Assembly: GCA_963717045.1 (NCBI GenBank)
Contig: CAVQVD010000015.1
Location: forward strand, 687,747-751,746
Direction: 5' to 3'
DNA length: 64,000 bases
Source: an uncultured delta proteobacterium
Lineage (GTDB): Bacteria; Desulfobacterota; Binatia; Binatales; Binataceae
Positions within the stretch are counted from its first letter, which is position 1; each line of letters opens with the position of its first letter. This document shows positions 1,813 through 33,571 of this stretch, piece after piece. The notes beneath the pieces are model-generated. The model did no database searches and was not told the origin of the DNA. It was given only the letters and a program-made list of their open reading frames with translations. The position numbers and the translations under genes are program-made.

Positions 1813-3060
1813 ATGCCTACGAACAGTACGCACAACGGGCACAATGGGAATGACGGCGGGCTGCTTGCGGGCCTCCGGGTTATCGACTGCGGAACCTACG
1901 TCGCCGGCCCTGCGGCCGCCACCATCATGTCCGACTTTGGCGCCGAGGTAATCAAAATCGAGCGTCCCGGTGGCGGCGACCTGTGGCGGCTCTTTTCGAA
2001 GCTTCCCGGCACGGCCAAATCGGAACTCGATTGGTGTTGGGTGCTAACGAGCCGCAACAAGAAGAGTGTCGCGTTGGATCTCGGACGTCCCGAAGGACGC
2101 GAAGCTCTGATCCGCCTCGTACGTACTTCCGATGTCTTCCTCACCAATTACCAGAGAACGCTGCTCGAAAAATTTCATCTCACCTGGGAAGACCTGGCAC
2201 CTGTCAACGACCGGCTGATTTATGCGCACCTTACCGGCTATGGCGACGCCGGGGAGGACGCGGATGATCCGGCGTTCGACGCGCTGGCATACTGGGCGCG
2301 TTCAGGTTTGATGACGAGCGTAACCGGAATCGAGGGCTCGCCCAGCGCACCGCGGCCGGGGATGGGCGATCATCCGACCGCAATGTCGCTCTTTGGAGCG
2401 ATCATGCTCGGCCTGTACAGGCGCGAGCGTACTGGGCGCGGATCCAGGGTCAGTACGTCGTTGCTCGCGAGCGGAGCGTGGGCCAACGCGTGCGATATCC
2501 AGGCGAAGCTGTTGAACGCGGTGTTTCCCGCGCGCGGCGAGGGCACGCATCCGCCCAACCCACTCACCGCCGTGTACCTCAGCCGCGATGGCAAGATGTT
2601 TCTCCTGGTGCTGATCGATCCGGACAACGAGTTTCCGCGCCTGTGCCAGGCTTTCGGCCAGCCGGAGCTGGGTACGGGGGAGCTATTCGCGACCAATGAC
2701 GGCCGCGACCGGAACGCGGCGGCGCTGTATGCAATTCTGCAATCGGAGTTCGAGTCGCGGGACCTCGCGGAGTGGCGCATGATCTTTAAAGGTAACGACA
2801 TCAAATGGGCGCCCCTCCCCAAGCTCGACGACGTCGTCAAAGATCCCCAGATGCGCGCCGCCGAGGCTATCATCGAAATGGACTATCCCGGGGCGGGTAT
2901 CGTCGAGACGGTGAACAGCCCGCTTTTTGTCTCCGGCGTGGAGAAGCGAAAACCCACTGCGGCGGCTGAGGTTGGCGCTCACACTCGCGAAGTATTGCAG
3001 GAACTCGGCTACGGCGCCGACGCGATCGAGTCGATACTGCGCGATAGTGCCCGGGGATAG
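1813..3060 (+). CDS. CoA-transferase family III (CaiB/BaiF-type)
   Basis: N-terminal GLRVIDCGTYVAGPAAATIMSDFGAEVIKIE motif characteristic of family III CoA transferases. Confidence 0.8.
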   Translation: MPTNSTHNGHNGNDGGLLAGLRVIDCGTYVAGPAAATIMSDFGAEVIKIERPGGGDLWRLFSKLPGTAKSELDWCWVLTSRNKKSVALDLGRPEGREALIRLVRTSDVFLTNYQRTLLEKFHLTWEDLAPVNDRLIYAHLTGYGDAGEDADDPAFDALAYWARSGLMTSVTGIEGSPSAPRPGMGDHPTAMSLFGAIMLGLYRRERTGRGSRVSTSLLASGAWANACDIQAKLLNAVFPARGEGTHPPNPLTAVYLSRDGKMFLLVLIDPDNEFPRLCQAFGQPELGTGELFATNDGRDRNAAALYAILQSEFESRDLAEWRMIFKGNDIKWAPLPKLDDVVKDPQMRAAEAIIEMDYPGAGIVETVNSPLFVSGVEKRKPTAAAEVGAHTREVLQELGYGADAIESILRDSARG

Positions 3061-3216
3061 GCGTTTCCTCTCACTCCGCCATTACCGCCGCGGACCCGAG
3101 TGAGATAAGCTGGGGGCGGGGCTTACGGCATTTTTTGGCATTTAAGGAACGTAAAGGCTAAGCAAAAAGCACAGCGATTCCTTCGCACAAGGTCGCTAAA
3201 GGAGCTGAGATAAACG

Positions 3217-4569
3217 ATGCATTTCATGTGGTTTACGGAACGGGCGTACCATTACGATCCTGAGGTTGATCCGGCGAAGTACCATGCGTTGGAGAATCAG
3301 ATCGTCGGACTGCGCAGCTTCTTCAACACTCCTAATCGCTTCTTCGAACGCGAGCACGGGGCGAAACTGCTCAACCAGTATCTCGACGAGAAAATCTACA
3401 CCGATTCCGAGCTCAAGAATTTCGACGGCGTGATGCTCAACGAGCATCATGGCACGCCATTTTGCCTCGGCGCGGTGATGGATGTCGAAGCTTCGATCCT
3501 GGCCAAGACCACCAAGCGGCTGAAGATGGTTCTGCTCGGCAATCCCGTCGCCACCGTCGCCAATCCGCTGCGCCTGGCGGAAGAGCTCGCCATGATTGAT
3601 CTCATCTCGGGCGGACGCCTGGTCTCCGGATGGGTGCGCGGTGCCGGTTCCGAGCAGTTCGCCAACAACACCAATCCGGCGCTTAATCGCGAACTGTTCG
3701 AGGAAGGCGTCGAGTTCATCGTCAAGGCGTGGACCACGCCCGGGCCGTTCCGCTACGAAGGCAAGCACTTCAATTTCCGCAACGTGAATCCCTGGGTGCT
3801 GCCGCTCCAGCGGCCGCATCCGCCGTTCTGGATTCCCGGCCTGGTGAGTCCCGATACCGCCTTCTGGTGCGCCCGTAAGCGCTATCCGTACGTCGCCCTC
3901 GCAACCAGGCTGCAGCCAACGATCGAGCTGTGGGACTTCTATGCCAAGGCCGCGGCTCAGGAGGGCTACCAGGCGGGGCCGGAGAATTTCGGTTACCTGC
4001 AGCCGGTGGTGGTGGCCGATACGCAGGAGCGGGCGGAAGAACTCGGCAAGCGGATTCTCTTCGGCGGCGCCTTTGCGCACTTCGCGCGGCCGGAGTGGAT
4101 GTTCCCGCCGGGATACAATTCCAAGGCCGCGACCAAGCGGCTGGCCGAAGTGAATTTCGGCGCCAACGCGGCGGCCAAGTCGCTTTATGGCGACGGCGGC
4201 AACAACGAATCCCAGGAACAGATCGAGGCCGTCAAGCAGCACATCTACAACGGCTATCCGGACGTCCTTAAAGACTACGTGATGATTGCCGGCACGCCGG
4301 ACAATGTGATTCCCAAGCTCTGCAAAGTGCTCGACGTCCTGCGGCCGGGAATCTTTTCGTTCTGGCTCGACGGACCGGTGCCCGCGAAGGACCGGATGCG
4401 ATGTCTTGAGTTGCTGAACCGCGACGTGATCCCGGCTATGCGTGACTACGGCAAGACGCTCGGACTGGTCGACCCGTTCAAACGCGCGCCCGGCTCGCGC
4501 CTCTTGCGCGCGGGGGTTACACCCGACCCAGTGAGCAATGCCGACGCGCTCGCCTCGATAGGTGCCTGA
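3217..4569 (+). CDS. LLM-class (luciferase-like) flavin-dependent oxidoreductase
   Basis: 450 aa, luciferase-like monooxygenase pattern (LNEHHGTPF, LRLAEELAMIDLISGGRL); strong GGAG RBS. Confidence 0.75.
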   Translation: MHFMWFTERAYHYDPEVDPAKYHALENQIVGLRSFFNTPNRFFEREHGAKLLNQYLDEKIYTDSELKNFDGVMLNEHHGTPFCLGAVMDVEASILAKTTKRLKMVLLGNPVATVANPLRLAEELAMIDLISGGRLVSGWVRGAGSEQFANNTNPALNRELFEEGVEFIVKAWTTPGPFRYEGKHFNFRNVNPWVLPLQRPHPPFWIPGLVSPDTAFWCARKRYPYVALATRLQPTIELWDFYAKAAAQEGYQAGPENFGYLQPVVVADTQERAEELGKRILFGGAFAHFARPEWMFPPGYNSKAATKRLAEVNFGANAAAKSLYGDGGNNESQEQIEAVKQHIYNGYPDVLKDYVMIAGTPDNVIPKLCKVLDVLRPGIFSFWLDGPVPAKDRMRCLELLNRDVIPAMRDYGKTLGLVDPFKRAPGSRLLRAGVTPDPVSNADALASIGA

Positions 4570-4587
4570 AGCGAAATTGACGCAACC

Positions 4588-4620
4588 CCTGGGCCGGACT
4601 GCCAATCCGGTCGGCCCAGG
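4588..4620 (+). terminator. GC-rich stem-loop (9-bp stem CCTGGGCCG/CGGCCCAGG) downstream of LLM gene, no U-tract
   Basis: Perfect inverted repeat seen in sequence 19 nt after stop codon; separates LLM gene from CuMMO operon. Confidence 0.35.
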
Positions 4621-4701
4621 GTTCACACCCCGCCCCCCTCCCTTAATAAGCCGCAAATCCAATCTTGCCTGAGAACTCCCGTTCCCGGAGGTCTTCGGCT
4701 G

Positions 4702-4730
4702 TTGACGGCGGCTGAAAATCGGTCTAAACG
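4702..4730 (+). promoter_or_regulatory. possible sigma70-like promoter for CuMMO operon (TTGACG-17 nt-TAAACG)
   Basis: Hexamers with 17-nt spacing about 40 nt upstream of subunit C start; weak -10, speculative. Confidence 0.2.
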
Positions 4731-4769
4731 GGCATAAGGAAAGCAAATTTCTTAGGCGAGGGTCTGCTT

Positions 4770-5606
4770 ATGAGCTCTATCGAAGAGGTGGCGGCAGGAC
4801 GTCGTCCAACCGATTGGCTGGTCGGTTGGAAAACCTTATTTGTCGGATGCGGGCTGCTGATGGCCTGCAACATTTTCCTCTGGATCTGGGACTATAAATA
4901 CGCCTTCACCGCGGGACTGGATTCCTCGAGCCGCGCCTTCGCGCTTCATTATCGCACGCTGTTCTGGGCTGAACTGCTGAGCGTTGGGGCCTTTGCAGGC
5001 GTGTGGTACGGATGGCTGGTGCGCACCGGCCGGACTCTCGTCGGCGAATCGATACCGCCCGCCGAAGAGACTCGCCGGGTCGTGGTGCTGTGGGGAATTA
5101 TCGGAGTTACCAGTCTCTCGATCTATATCGAGGCGAGCTTTTGGCCCAACTGGGACGGTGCGTGGCATCAGACGATGGTGCGCGACACCGCGCTCACTCC
5201 TACGCACATCCCGATGTTCTATTTTTTCTTTCCGATGTCGGTGGTGCTCGCTTTAGGAGCATACCTCTACGGCCGATTCAGGTTGCCGGCAGTCTACGGC
5301 GGCGAGAAGGGATTTCCATGGTCGTTCTTTCTGCTGATTGCCGCCGCCGTTCTGGAATTCGTCGAGGTCGCCTTCAACGAATGGGGTCACAGCCTCTGGA
5401 TGTCGGAGGAATTCTTCTCGGTGCCGTTCCACTGGCCATTTGTCATTTATGGATGGCTGGCGGGCGGAATGTTCGCGGTGTGGGGCGAAACCATCCTGCA
5501 TCTGTTCCAGATCGAAAAAGAGGGCGCGCGCGGTCGAAGAACTGCCGACGCATACGGCTGCCGCCGGCTAAGTGGGCCAGCGGTCCGCGGCTCTTTTCAA
5601 ACCTGA
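4770..5606 (+). CDS. pmoC: copper membrane monooxygenase subunit C (PmoC/AmoC family)
   Basis: Aligns along whole length to AmoC/PmoC: FWPNWDGAWHQTMVRDTALTPTH (Asp/His/His metal ligands), NEWGHSLWMSEEFFSVPFHWPFV. Confidence 0.9.
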   Translation: MSSIEEVAAGRRPTDWLVGWKTLFVGCGLLMACNIFLWIWDYKYAFTAGLDSSSRAFALHYRTLFWAELLSVGAFAGVWYGWLVRTGRTLVGESIPPAEETRRVVVLWGIIGVTSLSIYIEASFWPNWDGAWHQTMVRDTALTPTHIPMFYFFFPMSVVLALGAYLYGRFRLPAVYGGEKGFPWSFFLLIAAAVLEFVEVAFNEWGHSLWMSEEFFSVPFHWPFVIYGWLAGGMFAVWGETILHLFQIEKEGARGRRTADAYGCRRLSGPAVRGSFQT

Positions 5607-5656
5607 CGTCCTATTGGATCTTGCTGAGATTTTGCTGACATCTTGCGAGGAGAGGC

Positions 5657-6454
5657 ATGGCGACAGCACCATCGATAACGGCGGCCGCCGCGGCGGAAAG
5701 ACAACGCAGGCTTGCGCTGCGTGACCTGCTCAACGCGAAATATCAGTGGATCGATCGCACCTGGGACGCGGTCTTCTGGATCACGGCGATCTTTGTTGTC
5801 GCCGGAGCCGCGGATATAACGCGGCTGCTGTTCGCTGGCGACTGGGATTTCTGGACCGATTGGAAAGATCCGCAATGGTGGCCGGTGGTCACCGCCTTCG
5901 CCACCATCATCATTCCGTCCGCGCTCCAATACATTCAGTGGGCCGCATGGCGCTTTCCCACCGGTGCGACCTACACCTGCGTATGCCTCTTCATGGCTTC
6001 GTGGATCGGACGTTACTTCCAATGGCACGTTGCCGAGGGCTATCCGATGAATTTCGTATGGCCGATATCGACGATCCCGGCGGCCATAATTCTCGACTGG
6101 CTATTGATGAGAACGAAGAGCTTCGTACTGACGTCGCTTTTCGGGGGAGGGATATGGGCGGTGATGGTGTGGAGTTTCAACTACATCCCGCTCGCTCCGT
6201 TCCTCCAGCCGATGCAATTCATGCATCACATTCTTACCGTCGCGGACGTCCAGGGAATCGTTTACATCCGCACCCAGACACCCGAATACATGCGGCATAT
6301 CGAGCGCGGCGCGTTGCGCAGCTTTCTCGGTGAGACGCAGTACGTATCGCTGCTGTTTGGCGGCACGCTGGCGATGCTCGGTTATTGGATCGGCCAGTTC
6401 ATCGGGCGCTATCTCGCCGTGTGGCCGATTGGCAGATACATCAAGACCGTTTAA
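5657..6454 (+). CDS. pmoA: copper membrane monooxygenase subunit A (PmoA/AmoA family)
   Basis: LLFAGDWDFWTDWKDPQWWPVV ... YIRTQTPEYMRHIERGALRSF, near-identical to hallmark AmoA/PmoA blocks; GGAGAGG RBS. Confidence 0.9.
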   Translation: MATAPSITAAAAAERQRRLALRDLLNAKYQWIDRTWDAVFWITAIFVVAGAADITRLLFAGDWDFWTDWKDPQWWPVVTAFATIIIPSALQYIQWAAWRFPTGATYTCVCLFMASWIGRYFQWHVAEGYPMNFVWPISTIPAAIILDWLLMRTKSFVLTSLFGGGIWAVMVWSFNYIPLAPFLQPMQFMHHILTVADVQGIVYIRTQTPEYMRHIERGALRSFLGETQYVSLLFGGTLAMLGYWIGQFIGRYLAVWPIGRYIKTV

Positions 6455-6475
6455 AGCCGCTTCGGGGAAACAGCT

Positions 6476-6709
6476 ATGCGCATCGTCTTTCGCCTCTCGC
6501 GCGCCACGATGGTCGCGCTCTTATGGACCGGTATATTCGCCGCCCGCGCGTATGCTCACGGAGGAATTGCCGGACCCGACGAACTTGGGCCGCCGGTAAT
6601 CACCTCGGCCGTACTTGGCATTGGGGGCTATTGGCTAATGATGCTGTGGCCAGCGCGCAGCCGTCCTGTCGTCAACAACAGACGCAAATCGGCGCGTCAC
6701 GCGCGATGA
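6476..6709 (+). CDS. small hypothetical exported membrane protein encoded between subunits A and B (signal peptide, N-terminal His after predicted cleavage, one TM helix, basic tail)
   Basis: 77-aa ORF with GGGGAA RBS-like element; signal peptide ...ARAYA|HGG mirrors PmoB signal peptide ...PRAFA|HGE; fills otherwise 310-bp A-B gap. Confidence 0.35.
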   Translation: MRIVFRLSRATMVALLWTGIFAARAYAHGGIAGPDELGPPVITSAVLGIGGYWLMMLWPARSRPVVNNRRKSARHAR

Positions 6710-6764
6710 ACGCGATGAAATAGAAGAGTCTTCAGGCGATTTCTACGCCATTCGGGGAGGCGGA

Positions 6765-8015
6765 ATGCGAATGCGACTTCCGGTTGTTTTGTCAGCGGCT
6801 CTCTTCTTGCTGTCCGCGTCGTACGCGCCGCGCGCCTTTGCCCATGGCGAAGCGGCGGACGAGCCGTTCCTCAAGGATCTGACGGTCGCCTTCTATGACG
6901 TGCACATTTCTCCGACCGAGATCAAAGTAGGTGAGCCGGTTACGATCACCGGAGCGGTAAAAATTCTCGAGACCTGGCCCTATACGCTGGATCCGCCGCA
7001 AACCGCCTACATCACGCCGGTAGTTCCAGGACCAGTATTCGCGCTCACTGACCGCGAGGTGAATGGAGCTCAGACCCCCGGCTCAATCCTGGTCGACAAG
7101 GGGGGAATCTATCATTTCAGGATGGTGATAAAGGGCCGCCGTCCCGGAAACTGGCACGTGCATCCGGGAATCGCGATCCAGGGTACCGGAACTCTCATCG
7201 GCCCGGGCGAGTGGGTCGCGGTTGAGCCGGGCGCCGAGCCCTTCAAGATGGACGTGACGCTGCTCACCGGTCAGACCGTCAACCTCGAGCACTATGGCGG
7301 CAGCTTCGTCTGGTGGTGGTCATTCGCCGGATTCCTGATTGGCATGGTCTGGCTGCTCTATTGGACCGTGCCCAAGCGGACTGTCACCCGTCTCGCGGTG
7401 ACCACGCAAATTCCGGTCAACGACGATGCGCCTGACATCGGACTAATCACGCCGCGCGATCACATGTGGATGGACGTGCTAGCCGGCGCGATAATCGCGA
7501 TACTCGTGGTCGGCTGGATTTACATGGCGGTGAAGTTTCCCGTGCGGCTGCCGCAACAGACGGTGCGGTTTGCGCCCGAGGTCATCGACCCCAGTACTCA
7601 CTCGGCCCAGGTGATGAAGGCGGATTCGGTTTACGATGAGCAAAGCGACACCTTGGTTATAAAGGTAACGGTTAAGAACACCGGGACCACTCCGTTGAGA
7701 CTGAAGCAGTACATCATGGCGATGGCTACGTTCGTCAACGGCGACAAAGACGAACTGGCCAAGGCTGGGCCGGCGCATTACGTCGGCCGGATGCAGGTCG
7801 AGCCCGACTCTCCGATCGAGCCCGGCCAGACTGCAAACCTGCAATTGAAGATCAGCAGCCCGCTGTTCGACGAAGAACGGCTTATCCCGCTGCATGATCC
7901 GCAGGAACGAATCGCGGGGCTGTTGCGCTTTACCGATCCGAAGGGCCATGAGGATCTCGTGACCCTGAAGACCGATCTCGTGCCAACGGAGTTTCGCCCG
8001 CAATACCTGCCTTAG
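6765..8015 (+). CDS. pmoB: copper membrane monooxygenase subunit B (PmoB/AmoB family)
   Basis: Signal peptide then HGE (N-terminal His ligand), KGRRPGNWHVHPG (HxH ligands), TLLTGQTVNLEHYGG, two TM helices and C-terminal cupredoxin-like domain. Confidence 0.9.
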   Translation: MRMRLPVVLSAALFLLSASYAPRAFAHGEAADEPFLKDLTVAFYDVHISPTEIKVGEPVTITGAVKILETWPYTLDPPQTAYITPVVPGPVFALTDREVNGAQTPGSILVDKGGIYHFRMVIKGRRPGNWHVHPGIAIQGTGTLIGPGEWVAVEPGAEPFKMDVTLLTGQTVNLEHYGGSFVWWWSFAGFLIGMVWLLYWTVPKRTVTRLAVTTQIPVNDDAPDIGLITPRDHMWMDVLAGAIIAILVVGWIYMAVKFPVRLPQQTVRFAPEVIDPSTHSAQVMKADSVYDEQSDTLVIKVTVKNTGTTPLRLKQYIMAMATFVNGDKDELAKAGPAHYVGRMQVEPDSPIEPGQTANLQLKISSPLFDEERLIPLHDPQERIAGLLRFTDPKGHEDLVTLKTDLVPTEFRPQYLP

Positions 8016-8037
8016 CGCGGACTGGATAAGGAGCGAC

Positions 8038-8583
8038 GTGAAGATCAAACGACGGGAGTTCCTGCACAAGAGTGCACTTGTGGTCGCCGGCGTATCCGCG
8101 GCTGCCGCCGGTGTAGCGGTCACCGGCTTGGCCGCCGAATGGACTGCCCATCTGAAGAAATTTCGCCCGCATGAGGCCGAAGCGCTGCTCAAGATGGCGC
8201 GGCAGATATTTCCGCACGACCGTCTAGACGATAGCTACTATATAAAAGTAGTCGAAGACCTCGATGCAGAGGCGTCAAGCACGCCCGCTACCGCCCGCAT
8301 GATAAGTGCGGGAGTAGCCAATCTCGATCGTTCGGCCAAGGGCAACTTCGCCGCTCAGCCGGCTGTCGACCAGGTCGCCGCGCTCAAGAAGATTGAGGAT
8401 ACGCCATTCTTCGAAAAAGTTCGCAGCACGGAACTGGTTTCGCTCTATAACAACCAGGAAGTCTGGAAGGTTTTCGGATACCAGGGCGCCTCCTATCGCT
8501 TCGGCGGCTACCTGCATCACGGCTTCGACGATTTGAACTGGCTGCCTCAACCACCCGAAGTAGCAAGCCCGAAACCAGGCTGA
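8038..8583 (+). CDS. gluconate 2-dehydrogenase subunit 3 family protein (Tat-exported small subunit of membrane flavoprotein dehydrogenases)
   Basis: Twin-arginine signal KRREFLHKSALVVAGVSAAAAG; 181 aa; immediately precedes GMC flavoprotein. Confidence 0.65.
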   Translation: MKIKRREFLHKSALVVAGVSAAAAGVAVTGLAAEWTAHLKKFRPHEAEALLKMARQIFPHDRLDDSYYIKVVEDLDAEASSTPATARMISAGVANLDRSAKGNFAAQPAVDQVAALKKIEDTPFFEKVRSTELVSLYNNQEVWKVFGYQGASYRFGGYLHHGFDDLNWLPQPPEVASPKPG

Positions 8584-8598
8584 ACGGAGAGTTGCGAC

Positions 8599-10167
8599 GT
8601 GGCTCGATTCGATTCGAAGGACGACTCCGTAGTCGTGATCATCGGTTCGGGGGCGGGCGGAGGTACGCTCGCCAACGAGCTCTGCCAGAAGGGCTTAAAG
8701 GTTGTGCTGCTCGAGGCGGGGCAGCGCCAGTCGCTGCAGACTTTCCACAACGATGAATGGTTCGCATTCAAACAATTGGCCTGGCTCGACAAGCGAACGA
8801 CCTCTGGCAGTTGGCGCGTAGCGAAAGACTTTCCCAATCTTCCGGCCTGGACCTGCAAGACGGTCGGCGGAACGACCGTGCACTGGGCGGGGGCCTCGTT
8901 GCGCTTTCAGGAGCACGAGTTCAAAGCCAAGACTACCTATTCTAGTGTCAGCGGTGCGAACCTTCTCGACTGGCCGATAAGTCTCGCGGAGTTGGCGCCT
9001 TACTATGCCAAGGCCGAAGACAAGATGGGGGTTACGAGGACCAACGACATTCCCGGATTGCCTGGAAATAACAATTTCAAGGTGATGTACAACGGCGCGA
9101 CGCGAGTAGGATACAAGACCGTGCATACCGGGCGCATGGCGATTAACAGCCGGCCCCGCGATCGCCGTTCGTCATGCTGGCAGATGGGATTTTGTTTTCA
9201 AGGGTGCAAGTCGGGAGCTAAATGGTCCACTCTCTATACGGAGATTTCAAAAGCCGAGGCTACCGGCAAACTCGACTTACGGCCTGGATCGCAGGCGCTG
9301 CAGATTCAGCACGACGGCAACGGCAAGGCGACCGGCGTGCTGTATGCCGACAAGGACGGCAAACATTTCGTACAGAAAGCGCGTATCGTGTGTCTGGCGT
9401 GCAATTCGATCGAGAGCGCGCGACTGCTGCTCAACTCGGCCTCGTCGAAATTCCCCCAGGGGCTGGCGAACTCATCCGGCCAGGTCGGCAGGAACTACAT
9501 GCGGCACACGAGCGGATCCGTTTACGGCATTTTCGGCAAGCCGGTGCATATGTATCGCGGTACTGTGATGGCCGGGATTATCACCGACGAAGCCGAGTTG
9601 AATACCAAGCGCGGCTTTGTCGGAGGGTTCGAGATGGAAACCATCTCGCTCGGAATGCCATTTGCGGCCGCGTTCCTGGATCCGGGAGCGTGGGGGCGCG
9701 ACTACGCGAGCGTGCTCGAACAGTTTCCCAACATGGCTGGGATGTGGATCGTCGGAGAGGACATGCCGCAGGCCACTAACGCCGTGACGCTGCATCCAAA
9801 GGAAAAAGATCAATTCGGCTTGCCGATTCCGAACGTGCACTACGACGATCATGCAAACGACGTCGCCATGCGCAACTACGCATATAAAAGAGGCGCCGCG
9901 GTGTATGATGCCGTAGGAGCACTCAAGACGATCGCGGTCCCGCCATATCCTTCGACTCATAACCTCGGCACCTGCCGCATGAGCGAACGGCCCGCCGATG
10001 GCGTTTGCAACAAGTGGGGCCAGACTCACGACGTGAAGAATCTCTTCATCTCGGACGGCAGTCAGTTCACGACCAGCGGCGGAGAAAATCCCACGCTGAC
10101 GATCGTGACCCTGGCCATCAGGCAAGCCGATCACATCGCCGCCGAGAGCACGAGGCGTAACCTCTAG
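8599..10167 (+). CDS. GMC-family FAD-dependent oxidoreductase (flavoprotein dehydrogenase large subunit)
   Basis: N-terminal VVVIIGSGAGGGTLANELCQKGLKVVLLEAG dinucleotide fold and GMC-like C-terminal block. Confidence 0.85.
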   Translation: MARFDSKDDSVVVIIGSGAGGGTLANELCQKGLKVVLLEAGQRQSLQTFHNDEWFAFKQLAWLDKRTTSGSWRVAKDFPNLPAWTCKTVGGTTVHWAGASLRFQEHEFKAKTTYSSVSGANLLDWPISLAELAPYYAKAEDKMGVTRTNDIPGLPGNNNFKVMYNGATRVGYKTVHTGRMAINSRPRDRRSSCWQMGFCFQGCKSGAKWSTLYTEISKAEATGKLDLRPGSQALQIQHDGNGKATGVLYADKDGKHFVQKARIVCLACNSIESARLLLNSASSKFPQGLANSSGQVGRNYMRHTSGSVYGIFGKPVHMYRGTVMAGIITDEAELNTKRGFVGGFEMETISLGMPFAAAFLDPGAWGRDYASVLEQFPNMAGMWIVGEDMPQATNAVTLHPKEKDQFGLPIPNVHYDDHANDVAMRNYAYKRGAAVYDAVGALKTIAVPPYPSTHNLGTCRMSERPADGVCNKWGQTHDVKNLFISDGSQFTTSGGENPTLTIVTLAIRQADHIAAESTRRNL

Positions 10168-10787
10168 TGGCGCGACTTTTTTTCGGTCGAGGTAATGGCG
10201 TATCGTCGGCCTTGCTCGTTTTGGTGGCGATGCTTGCGCTGGCGCTTCCGCTCGCCGCGCGGGCTGAACTCGGCAATTCCGGACGGCCACGCACGGCGCT
10301 CAGTCCCACCGACGGACTGCCAAAAGTAAGCCTGACAGATCAAAATGGCAGGGCGATCTCGCTTTCGTCATTGAAGGGCAAGCCCGCGCTGGTCGCGTTT
10401 ATTCACACCTCGTGCGAGGGACCCTGCGAGCTGATCACCGCACAAATGAAATCGGTGGCGCGCGACCTGGGTCCCGGGTTCAAATCGAAAGTCACGATGG
10501 TCTCGATCACGACCGAACCCAAGGAGGACGGATCGCGCGAGTTGCTTGCCTACGCCAAGGCGCAAGGTGTGGACGCCGATGGATGGGTGTTCCTGACCGG
10601 GGCGCCGGCGAAAATCCGCCGCCTGCTGGCCCTGTACGGAGTATCGGCCGAGGACGACGATTCGGCTCACGTCCTTGAGCTGTTTCTGCTCAGTGCCGAT
10701 GGTGTCGGAATGCGCCGCTACAACGGTGTTGCGACACGACCGGAAACGATCGCCGCGGATATCAAGAAAACCGCCTTGCCTCACTAG
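10167..10787 (+). CDS. SCO1/SenC family copper chaperone (thioredoxin-like)
   Basis: Signal/TM anchor, CEGPC (CxxxC) copper-binding motif and downstream conserved His; GTG start overlaps stop of GMC gene. Confidence 0.8.
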   Translation: MARLFFGRGNGVSSALLVLVAMLALALPLAARAELGNSGRPRTALSPTDGLPKVSLTDQNGRAISLSSLKGKPALVAFIHTSCEGPCELITAQMKSVARDLGPGFKSKVTMVSITTEPKEDGSRELLAYAKAQGVDADGWVFLTGAPAKIRRLLALYGVSAEDDDSAHVLELFLLSADGVGMRRYNGVATRPETIAADIKKTALPH

Positions 10788-10911
10788 ATCGAGCTCTGCG
10801 CATACGGGGCCGCGTGACCGGCGAGAGACAAAGTTTCGCCGGCCGGTCGATCTGGCGCTCGCCCGTTCGACTATAGAACGTAAGACGAACCCGCGAACCA
10901 GGGAGGCGACA

Positions 10912-11259
10912 ATGCAGTACATGCTTTTGATCTATGACGCCGAAGGGCGGCAGATGAGCCCGGAGGAACAGGGCAAGCTTTTTCAGGAATACATGGCCTT
11001 TACCCAAGGCATCGTTAAGGCGGGAAAGTTCAAGGCCGGCGACCCGCTCGAGCCGACCAGCACGGCCACCACCGTCAGGGTGCGCGACGCGAAGACGCTG
11101 ACCACCGACGGTCCGTTCGCGGAAACCAAGGAACAGCTTGGCGGTTACTATATCGTTGAGGCCGATAACCTGGACGAAGCAGTCTCTATTGCCGCGCGGA
11201 TCCCGGGAGCTCGCACCGGATCGATCGAGGTGCGGCCGATCATGAAGATGCACATGTAA
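10912..11259 (+). CDS. YciI-like (DGPF domain) protein
   Basis: MQYMLLIYDAEG...DGPFAETKEQLGGYYIVEA pattern; GGGAGG RBS; typical partner of COG4941 sigma factors. Confidence 0.7.
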   Translation: MQYMLLIYDAEGRQMSPEEQGKLFQEYMAFTQGIVKAGKFKAGDPLEPTSTATTVRVRDAKTLTTDGPFAETKEQLGGYYIVEADNLDEAVSIAARIPGARTGSIEVRPIMKMHM

Positions 11260-11303
11260 GTTATGGCGGATGGGCCACCCGTCGCGGTGGGCTTTGGCGG
11301 GCG

Positions 11304-12563
11304 GTGTTAATGAGTTCATCGGCGATAGAGCGCCTCTACCACGAGGAGTTCGGGCGGATCCTCGCTACTGTGATTCGCCTGGTCGGCGACTTCGACCTGG
11401 CGGAGGAGGCAACGCAGGAGGCATTCGCCGTGGCGCTCGCGCAATGGCCGCGCGATGGCGTGCCTGCCTATCCTCGCGCCTGGGTGGTCAGCACCGCGCG
11501 TCACAAGGCGATCGATCGCTTGCGGCGCCACGGACGCTTTGCCGAGAAGCTGGACGAACTGGCCGGCGGCCTTCACACAACCTACGAGGAAAACGCGATC
11601 GCGGGAGAAGCGCAAAGCTCGGTGCCCGACGAGCGTCTGCGGCTAATCTTCACCTGCTGCCATCCGGCGCTCGCGCTCGAAGCGCAGGTAGCCCTTTCGC
11701 TTAGGACGCTGTGCGGACTCTCGACCGAGGAAATCGCACGCGCCTTCTTCGTGCCCGCCGCCACCATGGCGCAGCGGCTGGTACGGGCCAAGCGCAAGAT
11801 TCGCAAAGCCGGCATCCCCTACGAGATTCCGCGCGCTGACGTGCTGCCCGAGCGCCTCGACGCGGTGCTCGCAGTCATCTACCTGGTCTTTAACGAAGGT
11901 TACTCGGCAACGGCCGGCGAGGCGCTCGTGCGTGCGGAACTATGCCGCGAAGCGATCCGCCTCGGGCGCATCCTGTGCGAGCTTTTGCCCGGCGAGTCAC
12001 TCGGCGCGCGTGACGGGGAATCGAATGGACTGCTGGCGCTGATGATGCTGCACGACTCGCGCCGCGCGGCGCGCACCAACGCCGCCGGCGACTTGGTGCT
12101 GCTCGAAGATCAGGACCGGTCGCTGTGGAACCGCACGCAGATGGAAGAAGGCCTCGCACTGGCCGCCTTAGCGATGCGCGCGCCGGAGCACGGCCCATAC
12201 GCGTTGCAGGCCGCGATTGCCGCGGAGCACGCCAGGGCCCGGCGCTCCGCGGATACCGACTGGCGCGCGATCGCCGGGCTCTACGACGCGCTGCTTCGGG
12301 TGCGGCCGACGGCCGTGGTTGAACTGAACCGGGCGGTGGCGATCGCGATGGCGAACGGGCCGCAGGCTGGCCTCGACGCGATCGCCAGGCTGAAGGCGAA
12401 CCATGAACTGGACTCCTACTACCTACGCTGGTCCGCCGAGGCCGACCTGCTCCGCCGGTTGGGCCGCCGCGCCGAAGCAGAACAATCCTATCGCCAAGCG
12501 CTCGAACTCGTCACTTCAAACCCCGAGCGAAGGTTTCTCGAACGGCGGATTCAGGAGTTGTAG
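11304..12563 (+). CDS. ECF-type RNA polymerase sigma factor with C-terminal TPR-like extension (COG4941-type)
   Basis: Sigma-70 region 2 and 4 features (AFAVALAQW, HKAIDRLRR, LRTLCGLSTEEIARAF) plus about 200-aa C-terminal domain. Confidence 0.8.
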   Translation: MLMSSSAIERLYHEEFGRILATVIRLVGDFDLAEEATQEAFAVALAQWPRDGVPAYPRAWVVSTARHKAIDRLRRHGRFAEKLDELAGGLHTTYEENAIAGEAQSSVPDERLRLIFTCCHPALALEAQVALSLRTLCGLSTEEIARAFFVPAATMAQRLVRAKRKIRKAGIPYEIPRADVLPERLDAVLAVIYLVFNEGYSATAGEALVRAELCREAIRLGRILCELLPGESLGARDGESNGLLALMMLHDSRRAARTNAAGDLVLLEDQDRSLWNRTQMEEGLALAALAMRAPEHGPYALQAAIAAEHARARRSADTDWRAIAGLYDALLRVRPTAVVELNRAVAIAMANGPQAGLDAIARLKANHELDSYYLRWSAEADLLRRLGRRAEAEQSYRQALELVTSNPERRFLERRIQEL

Positions 12564-12757
12564 TTTTTCGTTTCCGTTTGCGCTTGTGGGACCGCAGTGC
12601 CGACCGATGTGTCCGCCCGGAGCGGCTGAAACAAATCGCCGCCGAGAACCGTTTCTATTTCAGCAGAAGCTGTGAAAAGGTGGTAGGCGTTGCGCCCGAC
12701 TGCGGATGAGCGCGGAGGGCGCGCGGAAAGATCAAGAAGAAGCCGGCAAGGGACGCC

Positions 12758-13924
12758 ATGTTTTGGGGCGGCAAGCAGTACGGCAGGCGATGCGAGTGGA
12801 CGGTGACGGCGGTCATCTGCCTCGCGATGTTATTCGTCGCGGCATCGCAGGCGACGCCTCAGCAGGGCAGATTTCCCTCGCCTCCTTCGAACATTCACGG
12901 GCAAGGCGGCTCGGTGCTCGAGGTACCCACCGCGCCTGCGAGCCAGATCGGCAAAGATACCTCCACAATACCGCAGCTTCCGCCGCAGCAGGGCCAGGAA
13001 CTCGAACTTCCGTCGCGCGCGTTGCGCGGCCAGAGCGGCTACGAGCAACTTACCGTCACGGTCACAGATCAGGGCGGGCGCTACGTTACCGGGTTGCAGA
13101 GGGGCGACTTCCGGATCTATGTCGATGGGATCCAGCGGCCGCTCGAGTTCCTGCGCCGCGATACCAACACGCCCGTATCGATTGGTATCCTGGTCGATAC
13201 CTCTGGCAGCATGGAGCCCAAGATCCCGCAGGCTCGCGCGGCGATCGCGCAGTTCATCCGCGATCTCAACCCGCACGACGACATTTTTCTGTTTGCCTTC
13301 TCCGATCAGCAATTTCTATTGCAGCCCTTTACCACGAATCATGAACTGGTAATGCGCCGGCTCGGCCTTCTGCACGCCTACGGCGATACGGCAATCTTCG
13401 ACACGATCATGGATGGCTTGTACACCATCAATCGCGGCCGCTATGACAAAAAAGCGCTCCTGGTCGTGACCGACGGGATGGACAACGCGAGCCAGGCGAC
13501 GCTGTCGCAGGTGGTGGGGCGGGCGCGCCGGATGGGCGTGCTGATCTATTCGATCGGAATCGGCGATCCGAACTCGAGCCGGATCGGCTTTGGCATCGGA
13601 TCGCTGCTGTTGGGCGGCAATCGCGACCACGTCGACGCTGCGATGCTGCGCGAGCTGTCGACCGAGAGCGGCGCGCGCACCTACCTGCTCGGCGAGGTAC
13701 GCGACGGAGAATTGCTGCGACAGGATTGCCTCGCGATCAGCAACGAGCTGCGAGAACAATACTCCGCCGGCTTCGTCGTGCCGGATCCTTCGATGCCGGG
13801 TTATCGCAGCCTGCGCGTGGATATTCCGGGAAGGCCAGAGCTTACGGTGCGCACCCGCAAGGGCGTCACCGTTAGTCCGGGAGCGCCGCCAGCTTACGCG
13901 GGTGCGAGTGTGCCGAATCCATAA
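12758..13924 (+). CDS. von Willebrand factor type A (VWA) domain protein, secreted/membrane anchored
   Basis: N-terminal hydrophobic anchor; VWA MIDAS-like block ILVDTSGSM ... LLVVTDGMDN. Confidence 0.7.
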   Translation: MFWGGKQYGRRCEWTVTAVICLAMLFVAASQATPQQGRFPSPPSNIHGQGGSVLEVPTAPASQIGKDTSTIPQLPPQQGQELELPSRALRGQSGYEQLTVTVTDQGGRYVTGLQRGDFRIYVDGIQRPLEFLRRDTNTPVSIGILVDTSGSMEPKIPQARAAIAQFIRDLNPHDDIFLFAFSDQQFLLQPFTTNHELVMRRLGLLHAYGDTAIFDTIMDGLYTINRGRYDKKALLVVTDGMDNASQATLSQVVGRARRMGVLIYSIGIGDPNSSRIGFGIGSLLLGGNRDHVDAAMLRELSTESGARTYLLGEVRDGELLRQDCLAISNELREQYSAGFVVPDPSMPGYRSLRVDIPGRPELTVRTRKGVTVSPGAPPAYAGASVPNP

Positions 13925-30314: not shown

Positions 30315-30330
30315 TACGCTGTTTTTTGAG

Positions 30331-31821: not shown

Positions 31822-31892
31822 TCGGGAACTGAGTTGCTGCCACCGGGCGCAGAATCCCGCGCCGTGCTCTGGACCCGTAACAGGAGGAGAAC

Positions 31893-32210
31893 ATGAAACA
31901 CTTGAAGGCGGCGAACAAGAAGGCCCGTGCGGTTGAAGCAATTCGCACGGGGGGAGACGTGGTCGGGATGGTGCAGCCGATGGGCTGTACCACGATTTTC
32001 AATCCCGGCTGGGAAGCCGACCCTTGGGGTGGCGCGCATGCGATGTGCAGTCCCACGGAAGCCGATCTGGCGGGATGCTCGGGCGTGTGCTGGTGGCCGG
32101 CACAAGTGCCGGACAGCCTGCAGAACTATCCTGAATGGGCAAAGGGCTGCTCCGGTGTGAACATGGAAGACTGGAGAAGCCTGAACGTGGAGTTCCCCAA
32201 AGTTAAGTAG
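31893..32210 (+). CDS. qhpC: quinohemoprotein amine dehydrogenase gamma subunit (CTQ and thioether-crosslinked peptide) with leader
   Basis: Numbering from Met25, Cys7/Glu16, Cys27/Asp33, Cys37/Trp43 and Cys41/Asp49 fall exactly at published QhpC crosslink/CTQ positions; CSGVCWWPAQV. Confidence 0.8.
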   Translation: MKHLKAANKKARAVEAIRTGGDVVGMVQPMGCTTIFNPGWEADPWGGAHAMCSPTEADLAGCSGVCWWPAQVPDSLQNYPEWAKGCSGVNMEDWRSLNVEFPKVK

Positions 32211-32365
32211 AGACGAACGCCTCGGCCGCCGCTGGCCGAGCAACTACATTGGCTTGTCGAGGGGCGTCGGCCTTGCATGCAAGGTGCGCGAGCCAGTCGC
32301 TTCGTCGCGGCCGCGCGCTCAAAGGGTGATCAGGTAGGCTGCAAGGCGAGTCGCAAAGGATTGTC

Positions 32366-33517: not shown

Positions 33518-33571
33518 TAAGTCAGGTTTGCGAGCGGATATCTGTTAACCGCATCCGCGAAAATTTAACTG

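What the first reader, a model, noticed from the sequence alone, without database searches (positions are those of the whole stretch)
8038..10787. Tat-exported subunit plus GMC flavoprotein dehydrogenase and Sco1 copper chaperone directly downstream of CuMMO
The pair resembles gluconate-2-dehydrogenase-type membrane flavoprotein dehydrogenases, but no cytochrome c subunit is present. Together with a Sco1/SenC CxxxC copper chaperone, whose GTG start overlaps the GMC stop, it looks like an accessory module. The dehydrogenase could oxidise the alcohol produced by the monooxygenase, in place of PQQ methanol dehydrogenase, and Sco1 could deliver copper to the CuMMO.
Basis: inference. Interest (0 to 1): 0.6.

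Follow-up and report, generated by a model that had tools for sequence, protein, structure and literature searches.

The report
Acetol dehydrogenase genes beside Binataceae copper monooxygenase
The two-subunit flavoprotein encoded right after this uncultured soil bacterium's copper membrane monooxygenase is a close relative (about 70% identical) of the enzyme that oxidises acetol in propane- and acetone-using methanotrophs, which suggests this debated "methane-monooxygenase-like" enzyme works on acetone or propane rather than methane.

Summary
pmoC-pmoA-x-pmoB (4770-8015) is followed, with gaps of 22, 15 and -1 nt, by a Tat-signal small subunit (8038-8583), a GMC flavoprotein (8599-10167) and a Sco1/SenC protein (10167-10787). 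The organism is a Candidatus Binataceae bacterium.

The GMC pair is not a generic gluconate-type or alcohol dehydrogenase. It belongs to the acetol dehydrogenase family (GmcAB/AceDH). It is 70.5% identical to the Methylocella GMC in the propane-monooxygenase cluster; deleting the equivalent M. silvestris gene (Msil_1641) makes cells accumulate acetol. It is 53% identical to a Methylacidiphilum-type AceDH, which is acetol-specific in vitro.

It keeps the covalent-FAD histidine and three Fe-S cysteines. It lacks all three copper ligands of the recently reported [Cu-4Fe-4S] cluster.

In Binataceae the pair lies within 10 kb of a CuMMO in 7 of 10 look-ups, in five gene orders, and the two proteins diverge in step. 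In 117 proteobacterial loci the same pair sits with a glyoxalase-type gene and no CuMMO. Sco1 follows the CuMMO, not the GMC.

Best reading: an acetone (possibly propane) to acetol to methylglyoxal module, assembled independently of the verrucomicrobial PMO3 cluster. This is a new variant of a known kind. No activity was measured here.

The parts
4770..5606 (+). pmoC-like CuMMO subunit C (278 aa)
   Evidence: Pfam AmoC 152.7 bits, but below the NCBIfam AMO/pMMO equivalog cut-offs. The CuC ligands (D..H..H) and CuD ligands (N..H..H) are conserved in the alignment to PDB 4phz_K.
5657..6454 (+). pmoA-like CuMMO subunit A (265 aa)
   Evidence: Pfam AMO 201.9 bits. Identity is 44-47% to Rhodococcus/Mycolicibacterium HmoA, 33% to verrucomicrobial PmoA3, and 74-90% to other Binataceae loci.
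6476..6709 (+). Conserved small ORF 'x' (77 aa) between pmoA and pmoB: a signal peptide ending AYA, then HGG, then one predicted transmembrane helix
   Evidence: tblastn finds it between pmoA and pmoB in all 11 Binataceae CuMMO loci in the database searched. It is absent from the actinobacterial and verrucomicrobial loci. In L137 and L139, fetched later, a short gene is called at the same place and has the same core motif. No Pfam test was run on this ORF.
6765..8015 (+). pmoB-like CuMMO subunit B (416 aa)
   Evidence: Pfam Monooxygenase_B 282.5 bits. The N-terminal AHGE and the WHVH copper-ligand histidines align with M. capsulatus PmoB, PDB 3rgb_A.
8038..8583 (+). gmcB-like small (beta) subunit with Tat signal (181 aa)
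   Evidence: RREFL motif. 40% identical to the M. tundrae 'gluconate 2-dehydrogenase subunit 3 family protein', and 31% over the C-terminal 74 aa to verrucomicrobial GmcB. Its own PF13618 match is weak (E=0.15), but the L006 orthologue passes the cut-off (27.6 vs 23.4 bits).
8599..10167 (+). gmcA-like large (alpha) subunit, FAD/Fe-S GMC dehydrogenase; putative acetol dehydrogenase (522 aa)
   Evidence: Pfam GMC_N and GMC_C. 70.5% identical to the M. tundrae GMC in the PrMO cluster, and 53% over 389 aa to the Methylacidiphilum-type GmcA. His95 aligns with the covalent-FAD His91. C193/C199/C203 align with C187/C193/C197. W194 and M196 replace Asp188 and Cys190.
10167..10787 (+). Sco1/SenC-type thioredoxin-fold copper protein (206 aa), with an N-terminal hydrophobic signal or anchor
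   Evidence: Pfam SCO1-SenC 65.6 bits. C83xxxC87 and His168 are present. The start overlaps the gmcA stop by 1 nt. Orthologues follow gmcA in L001-3, L133, L134, L135, L137 and L076.

Best explanation
The seven genes pmoC-pmoA-x-pmoB-gmcB-gmcA-sco1 form one operon-like unit. The proposal is that it runs two consecutive periplasm-side steps of C3 metabolism.

1. Inferred: the CuMMO hydroxylates acetone to acetol. It may also hydroxylate propane to 2-propanol.
2. Inferred from orthologues, not measured here: the GmcAB heterodimer oxidises acetol to methylglyoxal. Shown from sequence: GmcB carries the Tat signal, and GmcA has no signal peptide and would be exported bound to it. GmcA would hold FAD covalently on His95. 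Electrons would pass to an Fe-S cluster held by Cys193, Cys199 and Cys203 near the subunit interface. This is most likely a 3Fe-4S or copper-free cluster, as in fructose and glucose dehydrogenases.
3. Inferred: electrons then pass to a soluble c-type cytochrome. Relatives encode one inside the cluster; this window does not.
4. Inferred from co-occurrence only: Sco1, a membrane-anchored periplasmic CxxxC/His protein, supplies or reduces copper for the CuMMO rather than for the dehydrogenase.

No enzyme activity, expression or metal content was measured here.
For: Orthology to acetol dehydrogenases:
- The window GMC is 70.5% identical over 516 aa to the M. tundrae GMC. That gene lies in a cluster of PrMO, sigma54 regulator, RHH, cytochrome c, VOC/glyoxalase, small subunit and GMC.
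- This layout fits what PMC7364539 reports for the M. silvestris cluster: PrMO Msil_1649-1651, lactoylglutathione lyase Msil_1643 and GMC Msil_1641.
- Deleting Msil_1641 makes cells accumulate acetol and abolishes growth on 2-propanol and acetone (PMC7364539).
- The window GMC is 53% identical to a Methylacidiphilum-type GmcA. That protein has the CDQCGFCFQGC motif at residue 187 and His91, and sits next to gloA and pmoCAB3-pmoD.
- The SolV enzyme oxidises acetol with a Km of 2.3 uM and does not oxidise other alcohols.
- A rough neighbour-joining tree (no bootstrap support) places the Binataceae clade inside the tight proteobacterial group and the verrucomicrobial enzyme outside it. The two characterised enzymes therefore bracket the window protein.

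Methylglyoxal as the family's product:
- 85 of 117 proteobacterial loci carrying this pair also carry the VOC/glyoxalase-type gene of the Methylocella cluster. 4 of 117 carry a PrMO alpha subunit.

Linkage to the CuMMO:
- A CuMMO lies within 10 kb in 7 of 10 Binataceae look-ups, in five gene orders.
- Identities fall in step: PmoA/GMC are 90/86%, 84/82% and 74/79%.

C3-pathway hints in relatives:
- Some add a Zn-alcohol dehydrogenase, which would suit the 2-propanol to acetone step.
- L006 has a sigma54 activator with a weak hit to MimR_N (the Pfam domain family named for the regulator MimR).
- L134, L135 and L137 have a cytochrome c directly before gmcB.

CuMMO and Sco1:
- The copper ligands of PmoB and PmoC are intact.
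- Sco1 follows gmcA in three CuMMO-linked gene orders. It is absent from all 117 proteobacterial loci and from the CuMMO-free Binataceae loci.
Against: - No activity, expression or metal data exist for any Binataceae protein.
- The CuMMO is not an orthologue of the only proven acetone-oxidising CuMMO. PmoA is 33% identical to PmoA3 and nearer (44-47%) to actinobacterial C2-C4 alkane monooxygenases. Its substrate is inferred solely from its neighbour.
- The window has no glyoxalase, lactate dehydrogenase, Zn-alcohol dehydrogenase or cytochrome c homologue within 64 kb. The onward path for toxic methylglyoxal and the electron acceptor are therefore unaccounted for locally.
- 3 of 10 Binataceae look-ups, and essentially all proteobacterial loci, have the pair without a CuMMO. 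The dehydrogenase clearly also works alone.
- The M. silvestris protein itself was not available. M. tundrae served as a proxy.
- The C-terminal catalytic residues of SolV AceDH could not be aligned, because the reference contig is truncated.
- Sco1 proteins normally mature cytochrome oxidase CuA sites, and that role is not excluded.
Confidence: 0.6

Rival explanations
1. The GMC pair is a broad alcohol dehydrogenase that oxidises the primary product of the CuMMO (methanol or a short-chain alcohol). It would replace the PQQ methanol dehydrogenase.
For: GMC enzymes include alcohol dehydrogenases. The gene follows pmoB by 22 nt. Awala et al. also proposed a 2-propanol-oxidising role for the verrucomicrobial GMC (PMC8630023).
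Against: Purified SolV AceDH has no activity on methanol, 1-propanol, 2-propanol or 1,2-propanediol. The M. silvestris Msil_1641 deletion mutant accumulates acetol specifically. Binataceae relatives encode a separate Zn-alcohol dehydrogenase between pmoB and the GMC pair. The proteobacterial orthologues sit next to a glyoxalase-type gene, not next to alkane or methane genes.
Confidence: 0.12
2. The GMC dehydrogenase is chiefly a redox partner of the CuMMO. Electrons taken from its substrate would return through the surface Fe-S cluster, directly or via cytochrome c, to reduce the monooxygenase copper site. This resembles GMC/cellobiose dehydrogenases feeding lytic polysaccharide monooxygenases, or the 'direct coupling' model for methanol dehydrogenase and pMMO.
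For: Both proteins face the periplasm. They are co-inherited and tightly linked in several gene orders. The Fe-S cluster of the SolV enzyme lies near the protein surface and has a high potential of +275 mV. The physiological reductant of CuMMOs is unresolved (own knowledge).
Against: No evidence of physical interaction exists. The same pair works without any monooxygenase in 117 proteobacterial loci. SolV AceDH reduces a cytochrome c in vitro. Relatives encode a dedicated cytochrome c.
Confidence: 0.08
3. The pair is a sugar, polyol or gluconate dehydrogenase of the FAD-GADH/FDH/FAD-GDH type. It would be functionally unrelated to the CuMMO and adjacent only by genome history.
For: The best solved-structure matches are fructose and glucose dehydrogenase large subunits. 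Small-subunit orthologues match Gluconate_2-dh3. JGI annotates the homologues as 'choline dehydrogenase-like'.
Against: Similarity to those enzymes is far weaker (phmmer 165 bits for the whole protein) than to the two acetol dehydrogenases (70.5% and 53% identity). There is no trihaem cytochrome subunit. The linkage with CuMMO survives rearrangement and the two co-diverge.
Confidence: 0.05
4. An alternative for Sco1 only. It matures the CuA site of a cytochrome oxidase, acts as a thiol-disulfide reductase, or serves the dehydrogenase's metal cluster. It would not serve the CuMMO.
For: CuA assembly is the canonical Sco1 role (own knowledge; PMC6669012 listed). A copper-containing cluster was found in the SolV homologue. 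The M. tundrae cluster lies near cytochrome oxidase genes.
Against: The window dehydrogenase lacks all three copper ligands: W194, M196, and a Tyr plus deletion in place of the beta-subunit Met144. Sco1 is absent wherever the pair occurs without a CuMMO. The CuMMO-linked locus without Sco1 has a CusF-like copper protein instead.
Confidence: 0.3

Closest known systems
Methylocella GMC oxidoreductase of the propane monooxygenase cluster (M. silvestris Msil_1641/1642; M. tundrae T4 plasmid 2, WP_134492896.1 and WP_166796057.1)
   Same: 70.5% (large subunit) and 40% (small subunit) identity. Same two-gene order with a Tat small subunit first. Same three-cysteine motif, C-x-Q-x-GFCFQGC, without the fourth Cys. 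It is encoded beside a hydrocarbon monooxygenase. Genetic evidence supports acetol oxidation.
   Different: The partner there is a soluble di-iron propane monooxygenase, not a CuMMO. That cluster also has a cytochrome c, a VOC/glyoxalase, an RHH_4 protein and a sigma54 regulator, all missing here. It has no Sco1.
Methylacidiphilum AceDH (GmcAB) in the pmoCAB3 C3 cluster (M. fumariolicum SolV Mfumv2_1609/1610; strain IT6 IT6_09380/85)
   Same: A CuMMO plus a Tat-exported two-subunit GMC dehydrogenase in one cluster. 53% identity over the N-terminal 389 aa. The covalent-FAD His, the three Fe-S cysteines, Phe after the second Cys and the NYMRH histidine are all conserved.
   Different: The [Cu-4Fe-4S] ligands Asp188, Cys190 and beta-subunit Met144 are replaced here by Trp194, Met196 and a Tyr with a 5-residue deletion. 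The CuMMOs are only 31-33% identical, so the pairing arose independently. The verrucomicrobial cluster adds glyoxalase I, lactate dehydrogenase, PEP synthase and pmoD, and has no Sco1.
Three-subunit FAD/Fe-S membrane dehydrogenases (Gluconobacter fructose dehydrogenase 7w2j; Burkholderia FAD-glucose dehydrogenase 6a2u; gluconate 2-dehydrogenase)
   Same: The large-subunit fold, the covalent-FAD histidine context (GGTT-x-HWA) and the Fe-S cysteine triad align. A small Tat 'hitch-hiker' subunit is present (own knowledge for those enzymes).
   Different: The relationship is distant. There is no trihaem cytochrome c membrane subunit. The SolV homologue is soluble and acts on acetol, not sugars. 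The predicted small-subunit fold matched FdhS only weakly (Foldseek probability 0.6, E=1.3).
Actinobacterial hydrocarbon monooxygenase clusters (hmoCAB of Mycolicibacterium chubuense NBB4; Rhodococcus sp. WAY2)
   Same: These are the closest CuMMOs on named cultured strains among the plasmid records searched: 44-47% for PmoA, 33-35% for PmoB and 37-38% for PmoC.
   Different: Their clusters pair the CuMMO with an NDMA-dependent alcohol dehydrogenase (mdo), MoxR/VWA and an AMP-binding protein. They have no GMC pair, no Sco1 and no 'x' ORF.

Membership tests
Acetol dehydrogenase (AceDH / GmcAB) | GMC-fold alpha subunit with an N-terminal FAD-binding GxGxxG and both GMC domains | tested here: met
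   Pfam GMC_oxred_N 70.1 bits and GMC_oxred_C 83.5 bits; GSGAGGG at residue 16.
Acetol dehydrogenase (AceDH / GmcAB) | Histidine that binds FAD covalently (His91 in SolV) | tested here: met
   Window His95, in GGTTVHWAG, aligns with His91 of the Methylacidiphilum-type GmcA.
Acetol dehydrogenase (AceDH / GmcAB) | Fe-S cluster cysteines Cys187, Cys193 and Cys197 | tested here: met
   Window C193, C199 and C203, in CWQMGFCFQGC, align with them. They also align with the Cys triad of FDH.
Acetol dehydrogenase (AceDH / GmcAB), [Cu-4Fe-4S] subtype | Copper ligands Asp188-alpha, Cys190-alpha and Met144-beta | tested here: not met
   The window has Trp194 and Met196. In the beta subunit a Tyr aligns with the Met, and the adjacent 5 residues are deleted. 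The preprint says the motif is also absent from Methylocella enzymes.
Acetol dehydrogenase (AceDH / GmcAB) | Tat-signal beta subunit encoded immediately upstream of alpha; alpha has no signal peptide | tested here: met
   KRREFL motif in the 8038-8583 protein; 15-nt gap to gmcA; the GmcA N-terminus runs straight into the FAD fold.
Acetol dehydrogenase (AceDH / GmcAB) | Close sequence relationship to experimentally characterised members | tested here: met
   70.5% to the M. tundrae GMC in the PrMO cluster and 53% to the Methylacidiphilum-type GmcA; the tree brackets the window protein. The Msil_1641 sequence itself was not available.
Acetol dehydrogenase (AceDH / GmcAB) | Catalytic residues His458, Asn501 and Thr451 of SolV | tested here: inconclusive
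   The window has the usual GMC motifs STH(454)NLG and EN(497)PTLT, both conserved with M. tundrae. The verrucomicrobial reference contig is cut after residue 387, so no direct alignment was possible.
Acetol dehydrogenase (AceDH / GmcAB) | Oxidises acetol to methylglyoxal | not testable with these tools
   Requires an enzyme assay. Indirect support: a glyoxalase-type gene lies next to the pair in 85 of 117 proteobacterial loci.
Gluconate 2-dehydrogenase-type three-subunit FAD dehydrogenases | Large subunit homologous to FDH / FAD-GDH / GADH flavoprotein subunits | tested here: met
   7w2j_A E=2.3e-47; 6a2u_B E=1.3e-43.
Gluconate 2-dehydrogenase-type three-subunit FAD dehydrogenases | Small subunit of family PF13618 (Gluconate_2-dh3) | tested here: inconclusive
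Gluconate 2-dehydrogenase-type three-subunit FAD dehydrogenases | Membrane-anchoring multihaem cytochrome c subunit in the operon | tested here: not met
   No cytochrome c gene lies between 4770 and 13924. No homologue of the relatives' cluster cytochromes is in the window. Relatives have only a ~155-170 aa monohaem cytochrome c.
Sco1/SenC | SCO1-SenC thioredoxin-fold domain with CxxxC and a distal His | tested here: met
   PF02630 65.6 bits; C83-EGP-C87 and His168.
Sco1/SenC | Binds copper and delivers it to a cuproenzyme (here proposed: the CuMMO) | not testable with these tools
   Co-occurrence only. Sco1 is present after gmcA in three CuMMO-linked gene orders and absent from all CuMMO-free loci.
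Copper membrane monooxygenase (CuMMO) | Three subunits C, A and B with conserved copper ligands | tested here: met
   Pfam AmoC, AMO and Monooxygenase_B. PmoB H33/H137/H139 and PmoC D156/H160/H173 and N227/H231/H245 equivalents are present.
Canonical pMMO/AMO, or verrucomicrobial acetone monooxygenase PMO3 | Orthologue-level similarity | tested here: not met
   All three subunits score below the NCBIfam equivalog cut-offs. Identity to PmoC3/A3/B3 is only 31-33%.

The most novel reading that the evidence does not exclude
The co-inherited dehydrogenase is more than the next pathway enzyme: it is the CuMMO's own reductant supply. Electrons from acetol oxidation would leave GmcAB through its surface Fe-S cluster, directly or via the small cytochrome c of relatives, and reduce the periplasmic copper site. 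Acetone hydroxylation would then be driven by oxidation of its own product. This would be a bacterial counterpart of GMC/CDH-LPMO pairs, and a genetically hard-wired form of the long-debated 'direct coupling' between dehydrogenase and particulate monooxygenase.
Probability: 0.1. Interest if true: 0.85.

Novelty: new variant of a known kind. Interest (0 to 1): 0.6.

Why it matters
Binatia 'pmoA-like' genes, and the related TUSC genes, are widespread in soils. They have been counted as possible methane oxidisers, but recent genome surveys find no methanotrophy modules in these organisms and leave the enzyme's substrate open (PMC8262859; bioRxiv 10.64898/2026.02.02.703227).

Finding an acetol dehydrogenase orthologue hard-wired to this CuMMO gives a specific, testable substrate hypothesis: acetone, and perhaps propane via 2-propanol. 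If correct, these genes should not be read as methane-sink markers. They would instead point to a soil sink for acetone and propane.

The finding also shows that the same dehydrogenase family has been recruited independently to three monooxygenase systems: a di-iron PrMO in Methylocella, PMO3 in Verrucomicrobia, and this CuMMO in Binataceae. The newly described copper-iron-sulfur cluster is not a general feature of the family.

The paper searches run here found no paper describing this linkage in Binatia. Murphy et al. 2021 do not mention GMC.

Tried and rejected
- **Exact-sequence look-up** of the window GMC: not on record, so this genome is not in the collection.
- **Promoter and terminator scan** of 3000-13000: counts are no higher than in shuffled sequence, so it says nothing about operon boundaries.
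- **Copper-containing [Cu-4Fe-4S] cluster served by Sco1**: rejected, because all three copper ligands are substituted or deleted.
- **Orthology of the CuMMO with the acetone monooxygenase PMO3**: rejected at 31-33% identity.
- **Search of the 64-kb window** for a glyoxalase/VOC, Zn-alcohol dehydrogenase, cluster cytochrome c, RHH_4, HbpS-like, CusF or PmoD homologue: none found.
- **Genome-collection scan with the motif C-x-Q-x-GFCFQGC**: Absence of a CuMMO in those loci applies only to the DNA held, and Methylacidiphilum genomes were not returned. A second, specific pattern on metagenomes gave a single verrucomicrobial contig with gmcA cut at residue 387.
- **Rochman et al. 2020** on betaproteobacterial CuMMOs is not in the held library.
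- **TUSC or 'Binatales pmoA-like' clade**: which one the window PmoA belongs to could not be decided without reference sequences.

Full report
**1. The observation**

On the + strand the window carries these genes:
- pmoC-like, 4770-5606
- pmoA-like, 5657-6454
- a small ORF 'x', 6476-6709
- pmoB-like, 6765-8015
- a 181-aa protein with a twin-arginine signal (KRREFL), 8038-8583
- a 522-aa GMC flavoprotein, 8599-10167
- a 206-aa Sco1/SenC protein, 10167-10787

The gaps after pmoB are 22 nt, 15 nt and a 1-nt overlap (TAGTG). The three CuMMO subunits match their Pfam families strongly. They fall below NCBIfam's cut-offs for true AMO/pMMO. Their copper-ligand residues are intact. Sco1 has C83xxxC87 and His168.

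**2. Source organism**

The closest GMC homologues (77-92% identical) come from Candidatus Binataceae genomes assembled from metagenomes. The exact protein is not on record.

**3. What the GMC pair is**

By sequence, the nearest solved structures are the fructose dehydrogenase and FAD-glucose dehydrogenase large subunits (E=2e-47 and 1e-43). The covalent-FAD histidine and a three-cysteine Fe-S motif align with them. The literature and related loci give a much closer assignment.

*Methylacidiphilum.*
- In Methylacidiphilum, a Tat-exported two-subunit GMC enzyme (GmcAB) lies beside pmoCAB3, a CuMMO that oxidises acetone to acetol (PMC8630023; PMC12235487).
- A June 2026 preprint purified this enzyme from M. 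fumariolicum SolV. It oxidises acetol to methylglyoxal with a Km of 2.3 uM. It has no activity with methanol, 1-propanol, 2-propanol or 1,2-propanediol.
- It binds FAD covalently at His91. It carries a [Cu-4Fe-4S] cluster on the motif C187-D-Q-C190-G-F-C193-F-Q-G-C197, with Asp188, Cys190 and beta-subunit Met144 as copper ligands (bioRxiv 10.64898/2026.06.11.731722).

*Methylocella.*
- In M. silvestris, deleting the GMC gene Msil_1641, in the same gene neighbourhood as the propane monooxygenase genes Msil_1649-1651, makes cells accumulate acetol. It also abolishes growth on 2-propanol and acetone (PMC7364539).

*Reference sequences obtained here.*
- A plasmid search found the M. tundrae version of that cluster: PrMO, sigma54 regulator, RHH_4, cytochrome c, VOC/glyoxalase, small subunit, GMC. 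Its GMC is 70.5% identical to the window protein and its small subunit 40%.
- A metagenome scan with the SolV-specific motif returned one contig with gloA-gmcB-gmcA facing pmoC3-A3-B3-pmoD-ppsA. Its residue numbering matches the preprint (Cys187, His91). Its GmcA is 53% identical to the window protein over 389 aa.
- A rough neighbour-joining tree (no bootstrap support) places the Binataceae enzymes inside the tight proteobacterial group that includes Methylocella. The verrucomicrobial enzyme lies just outside. The two characterised acetol dehydrogenases therefore bracket the window protein.

*Residues in the window enzyme.*
- Kept: His95 (equivalent to His91), C193/C199/C203, the Phe after the second Cys, and the NYMRH histidine.
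- Lost: Trp194 and Met196 stand where Asp188 and Cys190 are. The beta subunit has a Tyr and a 5-residue deletion where Met144 sits.
- The enzyme is therefore the Methylocella-type, copper-free form.

**4. How widespread the pair is, and what travels with it**

- Every locus encodes a GMC 65-76% identical to the window protein.
- In most, a small subunit 31-47% identical is also detected.
- The hosts are mostly Alpha-, Beta- and Gammaproteobacteria: Bradyrhizobium, Rhizobium, Ensifer, Roseibium, Paracoccus, Polaromonas, Caballeronia, Beijerinckia, Methylobacterium and Azospirillum.

Among the 117 non-Binatia loci:

| Neighbouring gene | Loci with it |
|---|---|
| VOC/glyoxalase-type gene of the Methylocella cluster | 85 |
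| RHH_4 gene | 72 |
| Small cytochrome c | 24 |
| PrMO alpha subunit | 4 |
| pmoCAB | 0 |
| Sco1 | 0 |

The pair is thus a portable module. Its most constant companion is a glyoxalase-family protein. This fits methylglyoxal as the product.

**5. Is it really tied to the CuMMO in Binataceae?**

Ten look-ups of homologues 77-91% identical to the window GMC gave these gene orders:

| Order | Loci | Arrangement |
|---|---|---|
| A | window, L001-3, L133 | CoA-transferase, LLM, pmoC-A-x-B, gmcB-A, sco1, VWA |
| B | L006-9 | sigma54 activator (weak MimR_N hit) and porin-like gene on the opposite strand, then pmoC-A-x-B, 188-aa ORF, Zn-ADH, gmcB-A, HbpS-like, CusF-like |
| C | L134, L137 | pmoC-A-x-B, Zn-ADH, cytochrome c, gmcB-A, sco1 |
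| D | L135 | cytochrome c, gmcB-A, sco1, pmoC-A-x-B, CoA-transferase, LLM |
| F | L139 | gmcB-A, HbpS-like, one further ORF on the opposite strand, pmoC-A-x-B, Zn-ADH |
| E | L004/5, L136, L138 | the pair with no CuMMO within 9-10 kb |

- So 7 of 10 look-ups show the linkage, in five gene orders.
- PmoA and GMC identities to the window fall in step: 90/86%, 84/82% and 74/79%.
- Linkage that survives rearrangement, together with co-divergence, is good evidence of a functional tie.
- The Zn-alcohol dehydrogenase would suit the 2-propanol to acetone step.
- The weak MimR_N hit on the sigma54 activator and the in-cluster cytochrome c of relatives also fit a propane/2-propanol/acetone/acetol pathway with a cytochrome electron acceptor.
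- The window has neither that cytochrome nor a Zn-ADH nor a glyoxalase within 64 kb.

**6. The CuMMO itself**

- Its PmoA is 44-47% identical to actinobacterial hydrocarbon monooxygenases. Those clusters use an NDMA-dependent alcohol dehydrogenase and have no GMC pair.
- It is only 33% identical to PmoA3.
- The CuMMO-acetol dehydrogenase pairing in Binataceae is therefore an independent assembly, not an inherited PMO3 cluster.
- The acetone substrate is an inference from the neighbouring gene.

**7. Sco1**

- Orthologues follow gmcA in orders A, C and D, and in L076.
- Order B has a CusF-like copper protein downstream instead. Order F has neither within the 9 kb fetched.
- Sco1 is absent from every CuMMO-free locus.
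- The dehydrogenase lacks copper ligands.
- Together this favours a role in copper supply or thiol reduction for the CuMMO. A cytochrome oxidase role is not excluded.

**8. Comparison with what is known, and novelty**

- The enzyme family (AceDH/GmcAB) and the idea of a CuMMO-AceDH C3 cluster are already known from Methylocella and Methylacidiphilum.
- New here: an unrelated CuMMO lineage in Binataceae, the Methylocella-type (copper-free) enzyme, a conserved Sco1, and a conserved fourth small ORF.
- The main Binatota genome paper does not mention GMC. Its text has no mention of 2-propanol. The one occurrence of 'acetone' lies outside its main text.
- A 2026 survey concludes that Binatia pmoA-like and TUSC genes lack methanotrophy context, cluster with hydrocarbon monooxygenases, and have unknown function.
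- This finding gives that open question a concrete, testable answer. I rate it a new variant of a known kind, with interest 0.6.

**9. Limits**

- No activity or expression was measured.
- The genome scan was truncated, and its loci are only 8 kb.
- The small-subunit fold search was inconclusive.
- The tree has no support values.

Noticed in passing
window 6476-6709 (+): A conserved 77-aa ORF lies between pmoA and pmoB. It has a signal peptide ending AYA, then HGGIAGPDELGPP, one predicted transmembrane helix and a basic tail. If cleaved as predicted, the mature protein would start with a histidine. tblastn finds it in all 11 Binataceae CuMMO loci searched, including loci where no gene was called, and not in the actinobacterial or verrucomicrobial clusters. 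L137 and L139, fetched later, have a called gene with the same core motif. It may be a fourth subunit or an assembly factor.
   Followed up: partly
window 1813-4569 (+); L135 15535-17611; L137 11268-17750; L138 1928-4942 and 12524-14988: A family III CoA-transferase and a luciferase-like monooxygenase recur next to the CuMMO/GMC clusters, and next to a CuMMO-free GMC pair. Between gene orders they are only 30-34% identical, so they are not orthologues. Their role is unknown.
   Followed up: partly
L010-L128 (proteobacterial loci); L129 12969-16569: A widespread conserved module of RHH_4 protein, small cytochrome c (sometimes), VOC/glyoxalase, Tat small subunit and GMC occurs in Rhizobiales, Rhodobacterales, Burkholderiales, Azospirillum and others. 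The GMC is 65-84% identical to the Methylocella acetol dehydrogenase. This suggests acetol oxidation is common well beyond alkane oxidisers.
   Followed up: partly
window 10912-12563 (+): A YCII-domain gene (10912-11259) and an ECF sigma factor with DUF6596 and TPR (11304-12563) lie between sco1 and the VWA gene. In L001 and L133 the VWA gene follows sco1 directly, so this looks like a local insertion.
   Followed up: no
window 28680-34357 (+): A quinohemoprotein amine dehydrogenase-type gene set: alpha subunit with haem-binding domain, radical SAM maturase, beta-propeller protein and an S8 peptidase. The same alpha subunit appears downstream in L001-L003.
   Followed up: no
L135 10581-11801: The Sco1 of this locus is 406 aa. 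It carries a ~230-residue N-terminal extension with no Pfam match and a second hydrophobic segment before the Sco1 domain.
   Followed up: no
L006 1-3747 and L129 2421-3896, 10774-12855: Both the Binataceae order-B cluster and the M. tundrae PrMO cluster have a sigma54-dependent activator and a porin-like outer-membrane protein nearby. The SolV C3 cluster also contains an unknown beta-barrel protein (PMC12235487). This may reflect a shared need for substrate uptake.
   Followed up: no
P0268-P0390 (representative GMC proteins): Many GMC proteins 35-41% identical to the window enzyme carry a four-cysteine motif C-x-x-C-G-x-C-x-x-G-C, for example P0289 with CNQCGFCFQGC. They could hold 4Fe-4S or copper-containing clusters like SolV AceDH. 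Closer relatives (over 50% identical) have only three cysteines.
   Followed up: no
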